This document shows positions 53,416-59,400 of a stretch of DNA of 64,000 nucleotides, piece after piece. Positions within the stretch are counted from its first letter, which is position 1, and each line of letters begins with the position of its first letter. The notes below the pieces were generated by a model. That model worked only from the letters and a program-made list of their open reading frames with translations, was not told the origin of the DNA and made no database searches. The position numbers and the translations under genes are program-made. The stretch lies in the NCBI RefSeq assembly GCF_009914755.1, contig NC_060929.1; one strand, 5' to 3'. This stretch comes from the human T2T-CHM13v2.0 reference genome, Homo sapiens.

Positions 53416-54158
53416 GCTATAAGATTTCAGAGGAGATTCTTCCTATCCATGAGCATGGAATGTTTTTCCATTTGTTTATGTCATCTCTGATTTCTTTCAG
53501 CAGTGTTTTGTAATTCTCATTGGAGAGCTCTTTCACTTCACTGGTTAGCTATATTTCTAGATATGTTATTTTTTGTGGCTATTGTGAATAGGATTATGCT
53601 CTTGATTTGGCACTCAGCTTGGACATTATCGGTGTAGAGAAATGCTACTGATTTTTGTATCCAGAAACTTTGCTGAAGTTATCTAGGAGCTTTTGGGCAA
53701 AACTATGGGGTTTTCTAGGTAGTTTGACAGAGGTAGTTTGATTTTCTCTCTTCCTATTTGGATGCCTCTTATTTCTTTCTCTTCCCTTATTGCTCTGGCT
53801 AGGACTTCCAATACTATGTTAAATAGGAGCAGTGAGAGTGGGCATCCTTGTCTTGTTCCAGTTCTCAAGAGGAATACTCCCAGCTTTTGCCCATTCAGTG
53901 TGATGTTGGCTGTGGGTTTTGTTGTGGATGGCTTACTATTTTGAGGTATGTCCTTCAATGCCTAGTTTTTTGAAGGTTTTTAACATGAAGGTTGCTGAAT
54001 TTTATCAAAAGCCTTTTCTGCATCTATTGAGATGATCATGTGTTTTTTGTTTTTATTCCGTTCATGTGGTGAATCACATTTATTGATTTGCATATGTTGA
54101 AATCAGTCTTGCATCCTAGGGATAAAGCCTGCTCAATGGTGGTGGATTAGTTTTTTTT

Positions 54159-54619
54159 TTTTTGTTTTTTTTTTTAAACAATTTTATAACTTTATTTGGT
54201 ATATTTGATGATTAGCAGTTAGTTCACATTCACACCGACTGTAGATTTTTTTAAAGTGGTAACAGGTACGTAGGCAACCAAAGTATAGAGCTTGTTTGGT
54301 AAATCTTTATCTTCATTACATTTTCTGGACAACCGAACATGGATACAGTATGAGACGTTGCTTATTCCTTTGGCCCAGACAGCTTTGTTGAGCCTGGTAT
54401 CAAAGTGTGCATCTGGAGTTCCCATCTCCTTCAGGGCAAGTTTCCGGAGCTCTTTGAGTGCCTGAGGGGCACGCTTCTTGAAGCCCACTCCATGAATGCA
54501 CTTATGAATGTTGATGGGATATTCTCGGGTCACCATCTCGTTGATGGCGAATGACCCTTCTTCTTCTCATCACCCTTCTTTGCAGGAGCCATTCTGCCGG
54601 GCCCAAGTTGGAAAGGAAA
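54159..54619 (-). pseudogene. RPL31: Processed pseudogene of 60S ribosomal protein L31 (eL31), full-length and intronless
   Basis: Minus strand: pyrimidine 5' leader TTTCCTTTCC, ATG at 54592 (MAPAKKG...), 1-nt frameshift near 54549, then [22 protein letters not shown]...MGTPD...[13 protein letters not shown]...[11 protein letters not shown] at 54219, AATAAA near 54191-54196, poly(A). Confidence 0.96.
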
Positions 54620-54639
54620 CTGGCCACTATTCTTACATC

Positions 54640-54828
54640 ATAATCAGTAGTAAAGCTAGTCTCATCTTCCACTACTTCCCCTCTTCCTCCCTCTACTCCA
54701 GCCCCTTGGCCTTGCTTCTTTCCCTGAGGGCCTCGACCCTAGCTTTCCCTTCTGCCTCGCATGCCATTCCCCCAGATATCCTTCTGCTTGACTAATTTCC
54801 TTGTCTCCTGCAAGTTCTTAGCTCAAAC
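54640..54828 (+). mobile_element. L2 fragment carried inside the transduced segment
   Basis: CTCATCTTCCACTAC...CTCTACTCCAGCCCCTTGGCC...TTCCCTTCTGCC...TTCCCCCAGATATCC...CTTAGCTCAAA resembles the L2a 3' region. Confidence 0.65.
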
Positions 54829-54833
54829 CTTTC

Positions 54834-56434
54834 TTTTTTGTTTGTGTTTTGTTTTTTTTTGTTTGTTTTTTTTTTTTATTGATCATTCTTGGGTGTTTCT
54901 CGCAGAGGGGGATTTGGCAGGGTCATAGGACAATAGTGGAGGGAAGGTCAGCAGATAAACAAGTGAACAAAGGTCTCTGGTTTTCCTAGGCAGAGGTCCC
55001 TGCGGCCTTCCGCAGTGTTTGCGTCCCTGGGTACTTGAGATTAGGGAGTGGTGATGACTCTTAACGAGCATGCCGCCTTCAAGCATCTGTTTAACAAAGC
55101 ACATCTTGCACCGCCCTTAATCCATTTAACCCTGAGTGGACACAGCACATGTTTCAGAGAGCACAGGGTTGGGGGTAAGGTCACAGATCAACAGGATCCC
55201 AAGGCAGAAGAATTTTTCTTAGTACAGAACAAAATGAAAAGTCTCCCATGTCTACCTCTTTCTACACAGACACAGCAACCATCCGATTTCTCAATCTTTT
55301 CCCCACCTTTCCCCCCTTTCTATTCCACAAAACCGCCATTGTCATCATGGCCCGTTCTCAATGAGCTGTTGGGTACACCTCCCAGATGGGGTGGTGGCCG
55401 GGCAGAGGGGCTCCTCACTTCCCAGTAGGGGCGGCCGGGCAGAGGCACCCCTCCCTCCCGGATGGGGTGGCTGGCCGGGCGGGGGGCTGACCCCCCCACC
55501 TCCCTCCCAGACAGGGTGGCTGCTGGGCGGAGACGCTCCTCACTTCCCAGACGGGGTGGCTGCCAGGCGGAGGGGCTCCTCACTTCTCAGACGGGGCAGC
55601 TGCCGGGCGGAGGGGCTCCTCACTTCTCAGACGGGGCGGTTGCCAGGCAGAGGGTCTCCTCACTTCTCAGATGGGGCGGCCGGGCAGAGACGCTCCTCAC
55701 CTCCCAGACGGGTTCGCGGCCGGGTAGAGGCGCTCCTCACATCCCAGACGGGGCGGCGGGGCAGAGGCTCTCCCCACATCTCAGACGATGGGCGGCCGGG
55801 CAGAGACGCTCCTCACTTCCTAGATGGGATGGAGGTCGGGAAGAGGCGCTCCTCACTTCCTAGATGGGATGGCGGCCGGGCAGAGACGCTCCTCACTTTC
55901 CAGAGTGGGCAGCCAGGCAGAGGGGCTCCTCACGTCCCAGACGATGGGCGGCCAGGCAGAGACGCTCCTCACTTCCCAGACGGGGTGGCAGCCGGGCAGA
56001 GGCTGCAATCTCGACACTTTGGGAGGCCAAGGCAGGCGGCTGGGAGGTGGAGGTTGTAGCGAGCCGAGATCACACCGCTGCACTCCAGCCTGGGCACCAC
56101 TGAGCACTGAGTGAACCAGACTCCATCTGCAATCCCAGCACCTCGGGAGGCCGAGGCTGGCAGATCACTCGCGGTTAGGAGCTGGAGACCAGCCCGGCCA
56201 ACACAGCGAAACCCCGTCTCCACCAAAAAAATACGAAAACCTGTCAGGTGTGGCGGCGCAGGCCTGCAATCGCAGGCACTCGCAGGCTGAGGCAGGAGAA
56301 TCAGGCAGGGAGGTTGCAGTGAGCCGAGGTGGCAGCAGTACAGTCCAGCTTCAGCTCGGCATCAGAGGGAGACCGTGGAAAGAGAGGGAGACGGAGACCG
56401 TGGGGAGAAGGAGAGGGAGAGGGAGAGGGAGAGG
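54834..56434 (-). mobile_element. SVA retrotransposon (SVA_C/D-like), all domains present, short VNTR
   Basis: Minus strand order: (CCCTCT)n at about 56404-56434, Alu-like region about 56000-56400, GC-rich VNTR about 55380-56000, SINE-R about 54880-55380, AATAAA at 54875-54880, A-rich tail 54834-54877. Confidence 0.97.
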
Positions 56435-59400
56435 GGATTAGTTTTTTTTATGTGCTGCTGGATTCAGTTTGCTAGTATTTTGTTAAGGATTTTTGCATCT
56501 ATGTTCATCAAGGATATTGGTCTGAAGTTTTTACGTTGTTGTTATGTCTTTGCTTTGTCTTTGCCAGGATGATGCTGGCCTCATAGAATGAGTTAGGGAA
56601 GAGTTCCTCCTCCTCAATTTTTTGGAATAGTTTCAGTAGGAATGGTACCAGCTCTACTTTATATGTCTGGTAGAATTTTGCTGTGAATCTGTGTGGTCCA
56701 AGGCTTTTTCTGGCTGGTAGCCTTTTTATTACTGATTCAATTTTGGAACTTGCTATTGGTCTGATCAGGGTTTAAATTTCTTCCTGGTTCAGTCTCGAGA
56801 GGTTGAATGTTTTCAGGAATTTATCAATTTACATATGCAATGCTATTCCTGTCAAATGAACAATGATATTCTTTACAGAACTAGAAAAAACTATTCTAAA
56901 ATTCATATGCAACCCAAAAAGAGCCCAAATGGCCAAAGCAATTCTAAGCAAAAAAGAATAAAGCTGGAGGAATCACATCACTTAACTTCAAACTATACTT
57001 CAATGCTACAGTAACCAAGACAGCATGGTATAGGTACAAAAATAGATACATAGACCACTGGAACAGAATAGGGAGCCCAGATATAAACCCACACACTTAC
57101 AACCATCTGATCTTCAACAAAGTTGACAAAAACAAGCAATGGGGAAAGGACTCCCTATTCGATAAATGGTTCTGGGACAACTGGCTAATCATATGCCAAA
57201 GACTGAAACTGGACAGCTTCCTTAGATCATATACAAAAATCAACTCAAGATGGATTAGACACTTAAATGTAAAATGTAAAATTATAAAAACCATTGAAGA
57301 AAACCTAGGAAATACCATTCTAAACATAGGCCCTGGCAAAGATTTTATGATGAATATGCCAAAAGCAATTGCAACAAAAACAAAAATTGACAAGTGGGAC
57401 CTAATTAAACTAAAGAGCTTCTGCACAGCAAAGGAAACTATCAACAAAGTAAATAGACAACCTACAGGATGGGAGAAAATATTTACAAATTGTGCATCTG
57501 GCAAAGGTTTAATATCCAGAATCTATAAGGAACTTAGACAAATTGACAAGCAAAAAAACAAACAAGCCCATTAAAAAGTGGGCAAAGACACTTTTCAAAA
57601 TAAGACATTTACACGGCCAACAAGCATATGAAAAAATACTCATCATCACTAATCATTAGGGAAATGCAAATCAAAACCACAATGAGATATCATCTCACAC
57701 CAGTCAGAATGGCTATTATTAAGAAGTCAAAAAGTAACAGTTGTTGGTGATACTGCAAAGAAAAGGGAATATTTATACACTGCTAGTGGGAATGTAAATT
57801 AGTCCAGCCACTGTGGAAAGCAGTTTGGCAATTTCTCGAAGAACTTAAAACAGAACCACCATTTGACCCAGCAGTCCTATTATTGGGTATGTACCCAAAG
57901 GAATATAAATCATTCTACCATAATGATACACACATGCATATGTTCATTGCAGCTCTATTCACAATAACAAAGACAAGGTATCAACCAAAATGGTCAACAA
58001 CATTAGACTGAATAAAGAAAATGTGGTACATATACATTATGGAATACTATGCAACCATAAAAAAGAATGAGATCATGTCCTTTGCAGCAACATGTATGCG
58101 GCTGGAGGCCATTATCCTAAGAGAACTAACACAGGAACAGAAAACCAAATACTGCATGTTCTCATTTATAATTGGGAGCTAAACATTGAGTTACATGGAC
58201 ACAACGAAGAGAAGGACAGACAGCGGGGCCTATTTGAGGGTGGAGGGTAGGAGGAAGGTGATGATCAGAAGACTACATATTGGGTACTATGCTCATTACC
58301 TGGGTGACGAAATAATATGTACACCAAACCCCCAAAACACACCATTTATCTATTAGAGCAAACTTAAACATGTGCCCCTGAAACTAATATTTAAAAAAAA
58401 AAGATTTCAGAGGAGAAAGCTCTCTTTGATTGACATGATCAGGAATCTTCATTTAAGAGATGACACTTGAATTCAGCTTTTTAAAAAATAAATAGGATTT
58501 GCTATGCAGACAAGAGGTTAAGGCTTAAAAATTGAAAAGAGTTCTGTAACTTTAAGAAAACATGACATGAATTTATAAATGGTTGTAAGATTCGGCACTG
58601 TAAGAAATCTTTAAATAAAAATTATTGTTCACAGACTTTCATAAGTGATGGGGATTGAAAGCTTTCTAAATTATCAGAAACCAAAGGCTGATAACAAAGA
58701 CTACTGTGTAACACATCTCACTGGGCTGAGGGGAAGACACCAGAACATGTCTCTTTTTTTTTTAATATTTGTGTGTTTTAAAAGGCAGAGTCAGTAGCAT
58801 GAATTGTATAGATTACTCTAATTTTAAAGGCAAAAGTAAGAAAGATTTAATGGATTTAAATGGACACAAAAAGAGGTAACATTAACCAAAGTGGTTTTCA
58901 ATTAGTCGGACACAACTTAGTTTTACTTGTTAAATACAATTTGTAATTCAGATATTATGCAGAAAACAAAGCTCATAGGCATCCTAATGGTTTTTAGTTG
59001 TAGAATCTGAATCCATTCCTAAATCTCTCTGATTCCATCTCTCACTCAAACCTCCAGATTTCAATGCACCAACAATGATGAGTTTGAATGGAAAAAATCA
59101 AGGTACAAAAAGAAAGGCCAGGGCTTTCCTCTCTCTCCCTTGCTCTCAGGGATGGGTCTGTATGTCAAATTAAGAGTATTGAACCCTGCAAAGAAAATGC
59201 TGATGGAGATACAGAAATGAAAAAGGGAGTTAGAGATTAACTGCTTGGAAAAAATAATGATTTATAAATATGTTCAGAGTATACTTTGTCAAGAGCACTG
59301 ACTTATGGCATGAAATTAAAGGGAAGTAAACATGGGTCAAGAAACTGGAAGGACAATTATGAGATGTGTTTGCCATTAGCCTGTAAACTTCTATAACAGA

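What the first reader, a model, noticed from the sequence alone, without database searches (positions are those of the whole stretch)
54144..56449. SVA 3' transduction that re-mobilised a complete RPL31 processed pseudogene
Seen: on the minus strand the order is SVA (hexamer 56434 to tail 54834), about 215 nt of non-SVA flank, a full-length RPL31 pseudogene and a second poly(A). One 15-bp duplication, GGATTAGTTTTTTTT (54144-54158 and 56435-56449), brackets the whole 2.3 kb. Removing the cassette rejoins the host L1 ORF2 (...GGTGGATTAGTTTTTTTTATGTGCTGCTGGATTC...). Neither the SVA nor the pseudogene has its own TSD here. Known: SVA transcripts can read through their weak poly(A) signal and copy 3' flanking DNA, as in the AMAC/SLC35G duplications. 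Inference: a source SVA lay just upstream of an older RPL31 pseudogene and terminated at that pseudogene's AATAAA. This copy is therefore a retrocopy of a retrocopy, which automated annotation would count as an independent RPL31 retroposition.
Basis: partly seen in the sequence, partly recalled or inferred. Interest (0 to 1): 0.85.

Follow-up and report, generated by a model that had tools for sequence, protein, structure and literature searches.

The report
SVA insertion carrying a copied RPL31 pseudogene
A young human SVA retrotransposon landed in an old L1 inside a PDE4D intron and brought with it 681 bases copied from chromosome 17, including an ancient RPL31 pseudogene, so RPL31P8 is a second-hand copy; this is a clear but ordinary example of a known process.

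Summary
One exact 15-bp duplication occurs only at 54144-54158 and 56435-56449. It brackets, on the minus strand, a complete SVA, an A-rich tract, about 215 nt of unique DNA, a full-length RPL31 pseudogene and a terminal poly(A). The two flanks rejoin as one L1 ORF2.

The non-SVA block (54176-54856) has one other copy in T2T-CHM13, at chr17:65.178 Mb, with 676 of 682 positions identical. That copy sits in its native context: a sense Alu, the same flank, and a pseudogene with its own 11-bp TSD.

Both pseudogene copies differ by about 11.5% from 28 other RPL31 retrocopies. They share 58 private states and differ from each other at 4 positions. RPL31P8 is therefore a copy of the chr17 pseudogene, not a fresh mRNA retrocopy.

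The predicted source SVA is absent from chr17 in CHM13. No VNTR or SINE-R match lies in the 33 kb examined. The chr17 homology starts exactly at the first A of the Alu tail.

Best reading (0.85): a classical SVA 3' transduction from a source allele that never became fixed. The main rival is a template switch at the Alu tail (0.08). Damert 2018 lists this SVA (hs_SVA_DR) with no chimpanzee or gorilla orthologue. SVA-driven pseudogene spread is already published (CKS1BP, 2025).

The parts
56435..56449 (-). 5' copy of the 15-bp target-site duplication
   Evidence: Exact repeat, found at only two places in the window; 0 of 100 shuffles gave 2 or more
56382..56434 (-). SVA (CCCTCT)n hexamer region
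   Evidence: TRF period 6, 9.2 copies at 56382-56435; sequence read
56004..56381 (-). SVA Alu-like region
   Evidence: The only part of the SVA that matches ordinary Alus on chr17 (query positions 132-432, 73-92% identity). 90.7-95.3% identical over 367 or more bases to the same region of 23 of the 29 nearest SVA loci; the other 6 gave partial or weak matches
55377..56003 (-). SVA VNTR
   Evidence: TRF period about 40, 12.8 copies at 55505-56003. The extension down to 55377 is read by eye
54875..55376 (-). SVA SINE-R, ending in the SVA's own AATAAA (54880-54875)
   Evidence: 98-99% identical to 39 other genomic SVA copies scored, out of 2702 candidates. 5-8 differences per 496 nt to the 29 nearest loci. 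AATAAA position. Listed as hs_SVA_DR at hg19 chr5:59726386-59726882
54857..54874 (-). SVA's own short A-rich tail (A9 C A3 C A4), not present at chr17
   Evidence: Lies between the AATAAA and the start of chr17 homology
54834..54856 (-). Transduced block, part 1: the A-tail of the chr17 Alu
   Evidence: The blastn alignment to L002 starts here, at the first A after the Alu body
54620..54833 (-). Transduced block, part 2: unique chr17 flank. It includes the 5' copy (54621-54631) of the parent pseudogene's own 11-bp TSD
   Evidence: Only two places in CHM13: here and chr17:65178449-65178661. TSD pair at chr17
54176..54619 (-). Transduced block, part 3: full-length RPL31 processed pseudogene (RPL31P8). 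ORF remnant at 54219-54592, frameshifted; AATAAA at 54196-54191
   Evidence: 441 identical, 3 substitutions and 1 indel versus chr17; 50-52 substitutions versus the majority state of 28 other retrocopies. Translation. The chr17 ORF matches Pfam Ribosomal_L31e at 6e-41
54159..54175 (-). New poly(A) added 15 nt after the pseudogene's AATAAA. Its boundary with the A-rich TSD is ambiguous
   Evidence: TRF T-run at 54151-54175. chr17 has no A-run at this point
54144..54158 (-). 3' copy of the 15-bp target-site duplication
   Evidence: On the + strand the site reads TTTT followed by A in the empty site, which fits an L1 endonuclease-type target
53683..54143 (-). Host L1 ORF2 (reverse-transcriptase region), downstream half
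   Evidence: Contiguous with the upstream half in 8 of 11 related L1 copies. RVT_1 E=2e-5, below the Pfam cut-off
56450..56760 (-). Host L1 ORF2, upstream half
   Evidence: 5942 genomic candidates, 40 scored, best non-self match 86%; contiguity

Best explanation
An SVA of the SVA_D group once sat in the A-tail of a sense-oriented Alu at the chr17 locus (CHM13 chr17:65.178 Mb), about 240 nt upstream of an ancient RPL31 processed pseudogene. A transcript of that SVA ran past the SVA's own AATAAA. It continued through the rest of the Alu tail, 214 nt of unique DNA and the pseudogene, and was cleaved and polyadenylated 15 nt after the pseudogene's fossil AATAAA.

The L1 machinery then inserted this RNA by target-primed reverse transcription at a TTTT/A site in an old L1 ORF2 within a PDE4D intron. 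It lies in the same orientation as PDE4D and created a 15-bp TSD. The source SVA allele was not fixed; it is absent from CHM13.

Shown: the single-event architecture, the chr17 origin of the 681-bp block, the direction chr17 to chr5, and the old age of the pseudogene relative to the copying event. Inferred: that an SVA stood at chr17, and that read-through rather than template switching joined the two parts.
For: 1. One TSD brackets the whole unit, and the flanks rejoin as one L1.

2. The order SVA, AATAAA, short A-tail, foreign DNA, AATAAA, poly(A) is the standard form of a 3' transduction.

3. The foreign block 54176-54856 is 676/682 identical to chr17. Apart from the copy in this window, that is the only place in CHM13 with the flank.

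4. Direction. At chr17 the block continues upstream into an Alu body and unique DNA. The pseudogene there has its own TSD, TGGCCACTATT, placed exactly at its 5' end and after its degenerate (TA)n tail. The chr5 copy is bounded by the SVA on one side and a new poly(A) on the other.

5. The two pseudogene copies share 58 states that differ from the majority of 28 other RPL31 retrocopies, and are about 11.5% from that majority. They differ from each other at only 3 substitutions and 1 indel. Of these four differences, 2 polarise to the chr5 lineage and 2 to chr17. The next most similar retrocopy is 87% identical.

6. The chr17 homology begins exactly at the first A of the Alu tail. That gives a TTTTT/G site on the other strand, a plausible L1 endonuclease target for a sense-oriented SVA, so the tail would be the source element's 3' TSD.

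7. Timing is coherent. The block shows 5 substitutions in 682 columns (0.7%). The SINE-R shows 5-8 differences per 496 nt to its 29 nearest relatives. Damert 2018 Additional file 2 lists this SINE-R (hg19 chr5:59726386-59726882, hs_SVA_DR) with empty chimpanzee and gorilla columns. That places it in the class counted as 245 human-specific of 340 hs_SVA_DR elements. It is the only SINE-R in the window.

8. Base rates from passages read. 748 of 7554 polymorphic SVA insertions carry a 3' transduction (PMC10681720). 16% of TD-carrying SVAs have no identified source (PMC12593883). An orang-utan SVA transduction also lacks an identifiable source (PMC9132208).
Against: No SVA is present at the chr17 locus in CHM13. 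The Alu tail there is uninterrupted. Across the 33.2 kb examined (20 kb upstream, 3.2 kb at the locus, 10 kb downstream), only the Alu-like part of the SVA finds matches, and these are ordinary Alus. Nothing matches the VNTR or SINE-R.

No sibling copy of the flank exists in CHM13.

Weak negatives from the literature follow; both depend on incomplete files or on coordinate offsets I estimated from memory.
- The held part of the supplement of the 1,019-genome long-read study (CHM13 coordinates) has no entry beginning 65178 or 65179.
- Damert's hg19 SVA_D list shows no chr17 element at my estimated hg19 interval of 62.23-62.40 Mb. For the prefix 6237, only 2 of 6 occurrences were displayed, and both were on chr5.

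The junction lies in an A-rich tract, which is also where a template switch onto an SVA poly(A) would be favoured.
Confidence: 0.85

Rival explanations
1. Template-switch chimera. L1 reverse transcriptase began on a polyadenylated non-SVA transcript of the chr17 region that ended at the pseudogene's AATAAA. It copied that transcript back to the A-rich Alu tail and then jumped onto the poly(A) tail of an unrelated SVA RNA. No SVA ever sat at chr17.
For: There is no SVA at or near the chr17 locus in CHM13. The junction is an A-rich tract where nascent T-rich cDNA could pair with an SVA poly(A). A template switch was proposed for the first SVA-CKS1BP unit (PMC12593883 passages).
Against: An A-tail of 18 nt with two C interruptions separates the SVA from the foreign DNA. 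The foreign DNA starts with genomic, non-mRNA sequence at a plausible endonuclease site. By contrast, the CKS1BP case was argued from a missing poly(A) and a 5'-truncated mRNA. This model needs a separate Pol II transcript of the chr17 region, for which I have no evidence. In the 2025 survey, only 1 insertion among 217 TD-containing SVAs was attributed to a template switch.
Confidence: 0.08
2. Independent primary retroposition of RPL31 mRNA at chr5, as the pseudogene annotation implies, next to an unrelated SVA.
For: RefSeq annotates RPL31P8 simply as a pseudogene (hub table). The copy is intronless and ends in a poly(A).
Against: It has 58 private states shared with the chr17 copy and is 99% identical to it, against at most 87% to any other retrocopy. 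It carries 237 nt of chr17 genomic flank upstream. It has no TSD of its own. A pseudogene 11.5% diverged cannot have arisen from mRNA together with an SVA whose SINE-R is 98-99% identical to other copies.
Confidence: 0.005
3. Two nested events. An orphan retrocopy of the chr17 transcript inserted first, and an SVA later inserted at its 5' edge. Alternatively, a DNA-level duplication moved the chr17 block.
For: A-rich DNA at the junction would be a good target for a later SVA insertion.
Against: The SVA has no TSD of its own. The 5' TSD copy lies directly against the hexamer, and its partner lies after the second poly(A), not after the SVA tail. A DNA-level duplication would not add a poly(A) 15 nt after an AATAAA, nor create a TSD at a TTTT/A site.
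Confidence: 0.02

Closest known systems
SVA 3' transduction (Xing et al. 2006, AMAC1 duplications; recalled, paper not held)
   Same: A full SVA, its own poly(A) signal and tail, downstream genomic DNA, a second poly(A), and one TSD around the whole unit. The transduced DNA maps to a single other locus.
   Different: The cargo is an ancient processed pseudogene, and 3' end formation re-used its fossil AATAAA. No source SVA remains at the donor locus in CHM13, and no sibling copies exist. I could not check whether this locus is in the 2006 catalogue.
SVA-CKS1BP units (PMC12593883, Mob DNA 2025; passages read)
   Same: A near full-length processed pseudogene propagated as part of an SVA-TD unit, with one TSD per unit. 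[quoted passage not shown]
   Different: There the pseudogene part is young and 5'-truncated, has no poly(A) between parts, and is attributed to a template switch from CKS1B mRNA. Three copies exist. Here the cargo is an old genomic pseudogene with its genomic flank, an A-tail separates the parts, and there is one copy.
Transductions whose source element cannot be found (PMC9132208 orang-utan case; 16% of TD-carrying SVAs in PMC12593883)
   Same: The transduced sequence identifies a donor locus, but no progenitor element is present there in the reference.
   Different: None in principle. This is one more instance.
Ordinary RPL31 processed pseudogenes (28 others compared)
   Same: An intronless copy from the 5' end to the AATAAA, with a poly(A) 12-19 nt after the signal.
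   Different: No TSD of its own, genomic flank from another chromosome attached, and private mutations shared with one other copy.

Membership tests
SVA retrotransposon (full-length, SVA_D group) | [quoted passage not shown] | tested here: met
   Subfamily label hs_SVA_DR comes from Damert 2018 Additional file 2; I did not re-derive it
L1-mediated (TPRT) insertion | One TSD of 7-20 bp at both ends, a terminal poly(A), and a T-rich/A endonuclease site | tested here: met
   15-bp TSD; poly(A) at 54159-54175; TTTT followed by A on the + strand of the empty site
SVA 3' transduction | Non-SVA DNA between the SVA's own poly(A) and a second poly(A), inside the TSD | tested here: met
SVA 3' transduction | The transduced DNA maps to a unique donor locus where it lies in native context | tested here: met
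   chr17:65.178 Mb, 676/682 identical; 2 of 2 genomic places are this window and that locus
SVA 3' transduction | A progenitor SVA immediately upstream of the donor sequence | tested here: not met
   No VNTR or SINE-R match in 33.2 kb around the donor in CHM13, and the Alu tail is uninterrupted. Other haplotypes and apes could not be examined, so the historical presence of a source is open
SVA 3' transduction | An empty target site in outgroup species | not testable with these tools
   No ape genomes are held. Indirect evidence: Damert 2018 lists the element with no panTro4 or gorGor5 orthologue
Primary processed pseudogene | Own TSD directly flanking the mRNA copy and its poly(A) | tested here: not met
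   No such repeat at chr5. Met at chr17 by TGGCCACTATT at L002 655-665 and 1501-1511
Template-switch chimeric retrocopy | Parts joined without a genomically encoded link, with no donor locus that has the two parts adjacent | tested here: inconclusive
   No locus in CHM13 has the SVA adjacent to the block. However, the A-tail and genomic flank at the junction fit read-through equally well or better

The most novel reading that the evidence does not exclude
No SVA ever stood at chr17. Instead, L1 reverse transcriptase, while copying a polyadenylated transcript of an old pseudogene locus, switched within an Alu A-tail onto an SVA RNA. That would create, in one step, an SVA with a ready-made 3' cargo. 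If so, A-rich Alu tails would act as hot spots for stitching arbitrary transcripts to SVAs, and some 'sourceless' transductions would not be transductions at all.
Probability: 0.08. Interest if true: 0.4.

Novelty: new member of a known kind. Interest (0 to 1): 0.3.

Why it matters
The case shows that a catalogued ribosomal-protein pseudogene, RPL31P8, is not an independent retroposition of RPL31 mRNA. It is a human-lineage copy of a much older pseudogene on chr17.

This affects three things. Counts and ages of retrocopies are distorted, because divergence from the parent gene dates this copy far too old. It matters for tracing SVA source elements. It also places two sense-oriented poly(A) signals and an SVA in a PDE4D intron.

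Mechanistically it adds nothing new, since both SVA 3' transduction and SVA-borne pseudogenes are published. The only open point is the missing source element.

Tried and rejected
- Independent mRNA retroposition: rejected.
- Nested insertion and DNA-level duplication: rejected on TSD and poly(A) geometry.
- chr5 as donor of chr17: rejected, because chr17 has native context and its own pseudogene TSD.
- An idea that the three T's before the new poly(A) were chr17-specific genomic bases: dropped. Other RPL31 retrocopies show cleavage sites spread over 12-19 nt after the AATAAA, with similar terminal bases. Only 17 of 29 loci had a recognisable 3' motif.
- Pol III read-through from the chr17 Alu: considered, because no TTTT occurs in the 682-nt block and a T-run follows it directly. 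Set aside because the chr5 copy lacks the Alu body and carries a poly(A) at the usual distance from an AATAAA.
- Pfam on a 35-aa L1 fragment next to the TSD found nothing. A longer fragment gave RVT_1 below the cut-off.
- Literature searches that found nothing on this locus: 'RPL31P8' gave 0 papers; SVA + transduction + RPL31 gave 9 papers, none relevant by title and abstract; supplements of PMC12593883 had no hit for RPL31, PDE4D, TEX2 or PECAM1 or for coordinate prefixes.
- Xing 2006 (PMC1693794) and Feng & Li 2021 (PMC8661421) are not held, so their tables could not be checked.
- I did not name the SVA subfamily myself and built no SVA consensus.


Full report
**1. What is in the sequence**

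Read on the minus strand, the region between the two copies of the 15-mer has these parts, in order:
- a (CCCTCT)n block at 56382-56434 (TRF period 6)
- an Alu-like stretch
- a VNTR (TRF period about 40, 12.8 copies, 55505-56003)
- a SINE-R ending in AATAAA at 54880-54875
- an 18-nt A-rich tail (A9 C A3 C A4)
- 681 nt of non-SVA DNA at 54176-54856
- a poly(A)

The 15-mer GGATTAGTTTTTTTT occurs only at 54144-54158 and 56435-56449, even with one mismatch allowed. None of 100 shuffles gave two matches. Only two AATAAA lie on this strand inside the cassette: the SVA's own, and one at 54196-54191, 15 nt before the terminal poly(A).

**2. The target site was one L1**

I took 11 related L1 copies from elsewhere in the genome (5942 candidates, 40 scored, best non-self match 86%).
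- In 8 of the 11, the two flanks map to adjacent positions and overlap by 15-16 nt, which is the TSD length.
- Two copies (L036, L041) have 40-60 extra bases at that point.
- One copy (L042) lacks a downstream match.

A 92-aa open stretch 180 nt downstream matches Pfam RVT_1 at E=2e-5. The score of 24.8 bits is under the 29.6 cut-off. A 35-aa fragment next to the TSD matched nothing. On the + strand the TSD ends in a T-run followed by A in the empty site. From general knowledge, that is the usual L1 endonuclease target.

**3. Origin of the non-SVA block**

The 214-nt flank has exactly two places in T2T-CHM13: this window and chr17:65178449-65178661 (2 candidates, both scored). A blastn of the window against that locus (L002) aligns 54176-54856 at 676 of 682 positions, with 5 substitutions and 1 single-base indel.

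At chr17 the block is in native context.
- A sense-oriented Alu body runs into an A-rich tail. The homology begins at the first A of that tail.
- The tail is followed by the same unique flank and the same RPL31 pseudogene.
- The chr17 pseudogene is bracketed by an 11-bp direct repeat, TGGCCACTATT (L002 655-665 and 1501-1511).
- That repeat lies one base before the retrocopy's 5' end and directly after a (TA)n tract that replaces its poly(A).
- An antisense Alu with its own 10-bp repeat, AAACAATTTT, sits in the old tail.

Either repeat alone could arise by chance in 1.2 kb; I estimate about 0.2 and 0.7 expected. Their exact positions are what make them credible as TSDs.

The chr5 copy carries the 5' copy of the 11-mer as part of its flank (54621-54631). 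It ends in a new poly(A) where chr17 has none. The direction is therefore chr17 to chr5.

**4. RPL31P8 is a copy of a copy**

A search with the pseudogene part returned 40 scored matches from 78 candidates. chr17 was 99% identical, and the next best was 87%. I aligned the chr5 and chr17 copies with 28 other retrocopies, which were all the further loci returned.
- chr5 and chr17 differ at 3 substitutions and 1 indel in 445 columns.
- Each differs from the column majority of the 28 at 50-52 substitutions, about 11.5%.
- They share 58 states (gaps included) that depart from that majority.
- Of the four differences, two are derived on the chr5 lineage (a 1-bp deletion and a C>T). Two are derived on the chr17 lineage.

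The pseudogene is thus far older than the copying event. The SVA family is restricted to hominoids (general knowledge). This SVA's SINE-R is 98-99% identical to 39 other scored copies, with 5-8 differences per 496 nt to the 29 nearest. An mRNA-derived retrocopy of the SVA's age could not be 11.5% diverged.

**5. Age and species range**

The substitution divergence between the two copies of the block is 5 of 682 columns, or 0.7%. With so few events the Poisson range is roughly 0.2-1.7%. It is below the genome-wide human-chimpanzee divergence of about 1.2% (general knowledge).

Damert 2018 (PMC6139936) Additional file 2, sheet 'homo', lists hs_SVA_DR at hg19 chr5:59726386-59726882. Its column headings are hg19, panTro4, gorGor5, observations and alu-like hg19. 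The chimpanzee and gorilla cells of this row are empty. Additional file 1 counts 245 of 340 hs_SVA_DR elements as human-specific.

I equate that row with this element on three grounds:
- the offset to CHM13 (1,522,494) matches the offset I estimate for PDE4D from recalled gene coordinates
- the listed length is 497 nt
- the window holds only one SINE-R

That an empty cell means 'absent' is my reading of the table. I did not examine ape genomes.

**6. The missing source**

The Alu tail is uninterrupted. I compared the 1578-nt SVA with 33.2 kb of chr17: 20 kb upstream on the element's strand, the 3.2-kb locus itself, and 10 kb downstream. Only SVA positions 132-432, the Alu-like region, found matches, at 73-92% identity to ordinary Alus. 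Nothing matched the VNTR or SINE-R. No sibling copy of the flank exists.

Two weak literature negatives follow.
- The held part of the supplement of the 1,019-genome long-read study has no number beginning 65178 or 65179. That file uses CHM13 coordinates, was cut when stored, and includes chr19 rows. It has no chr5 entry beginning 61248 or 61250 either (context).
- Damert's hg19 list shows no chr17 element in the interval 62.23-62.40 Mb, where I estimate the donor lies. For the prefix 6237, only 2 of 6 occurrences were displayed, and both were on chr5.

**7. Mechanism**

I favour the standard read-through model, at 0.85. An SVA inserted in the Alu tail in sense orientation; A-tails are good endonuclease targets. 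The retained tail would be the source element's 3' TSD, which explains why homology starts exactly at the first A. Transcription then passed the SVA's AATAAA and used the pseudogene's AATAAA. The new poly(A) begins 15 nt after that signal, within the 12-19 nt spread seen in the 17 of 29 other RPL31 retrocopy loci whose 3' motif I could recognise.

The source allele was presumably polymorphic and has been lost, or is rare today. Sourceless transductions are reported:
- 16% of TD-carrying polymorphic SVAs have no identified source (PMC12593883 passages)
- an orang-utan case also lacks an identifiable source (PMC9132208 passages)

About 10% of polymorphic SVA insertions carry a 3' transduction: 748 of 7554 (PMC10681720 passages) and 188 of 3,470 (PMC12350158 passages).

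The main rival, at 0.08, is a template switch in the A-rich Alu tail from a non-SVA transcript onto an SVA RNA. This was proposed for the founding SVA-CKS1BP unit. It fits the absence of a source. It fits less well with the interrupted A-tail and the genomic flank at the junction, and it needs an unobserved transcript.

**8. Comparison with what is known**

The architecture meets every tested criterion of an SVA 3' transduction except the presence of a progenitor at the donor site. That an SVA can propagate a processed pseudogene is explicitly stated in the 2025 Mobile DNA paper. Gene duplication by SVA transduction dates to Xing et al. 2006 (recalled; the paper is not held).

I found no paper naming RPL31P8 or linking SVA, transduction and RPL31 (9 papers, none relevant). 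The 2006 catalogue of reference transductions may contain this event, but I could not see it. I therefore class the finding as a new member of a known kind, with modest interest.

**9. Side observations**

- The chr17 parent keeps an open 124-codon frame that matches Pfam Ribosomal_L31e at 6e-41. It has 27 nonsynonymous against 11 synonymous codon changes relative to the majority state, which looks neutral.
- The chr5 copy is frameshifted at about codon 15.
- The cassette lies on the same strand as PDE4D (hub table).
- A preprint reports an RPL31 retrocopy present in GRCh38 but absent from at least one of 17 long-read samples (section 5). Whether that is this locus is unknown.

Noticed in passing
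L002:1098-1472 (-), i.e. CHM13 chr17 about 65.178 Mb: The parent RPL31 pseudogene keeps an uninterrupted 124-codon ORF (Pfam Ribosomal_L31e 6e-41) despite about 11.5% divergence. It has 27 nonsynonymous against 11 synonymous codon changes versus the majority of 28 other retrocopies, so the open frame is probably chance rather than selection. The chr5 copy lost the frame through a 1-bp deletion.
   Followed up: partly
L002:655-1511: At chr17 the pseudogene's poly(A) has turned into a long (TA)n microsatellite. It also received an antisense Alu flanked by AAACAATTTT. The pseudogene's 3' TSD overlaps the first bases of a further sense Alu, so it seems to have inserted at the edge of a pre-existing Alu.
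   Followed up: partly
L002 reverse strand, the 682-nt shared block and the bases after it: No TTTT occurs between the chr17 Alu and the end of the pseudogene, and a T-run follows immediately. A Pol III transcript of that Alu would therefore end at almost the same base as the Pol II cleavage site used by the chr5 copy. I treat this as coincidence.
   Followed up: partly
L048, L050, L074 (SVA loci on chr20, chr7, chr6): By eye, at least 3 of the 29 nearest SVA relatives show a short stretch of unique DNA after the SVA tail followed by a second A-run. These look like short 3' transductions. TSDs were not checked.
   Followed up: no
window 54144-56449 (-): The cassette is in the same orientation as PDE4D. 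It places an SVA and two sense AATAAA signals in an intron of the long isoforms (hub table). No expression data were available.
   Followed up: no
window 54159-54175 and 54857-54874: Both A-tails carry C interruptions: A11 C A5 before the TSD, and A9 C A3 C A4 after the SVA. The 11-mer CAAACAAAAAA occurs both in the SVA tail region (54865-54855) and at the end of the transduced Alu tail (54844-54834). I have no explanation beyond low complexity.
   Followed up: no
bioRxiv 10.1101/2020.06.07.139212, section 5: RPL31 is among the parent genes of retrocopies present in GRCh38 but absent from at least one of 17 long-read samples. RPL31P8, lying inside a human-specific SVA insertion, is a candidate. 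The table is not readable here and the published version is not held.
   Followed up: partly
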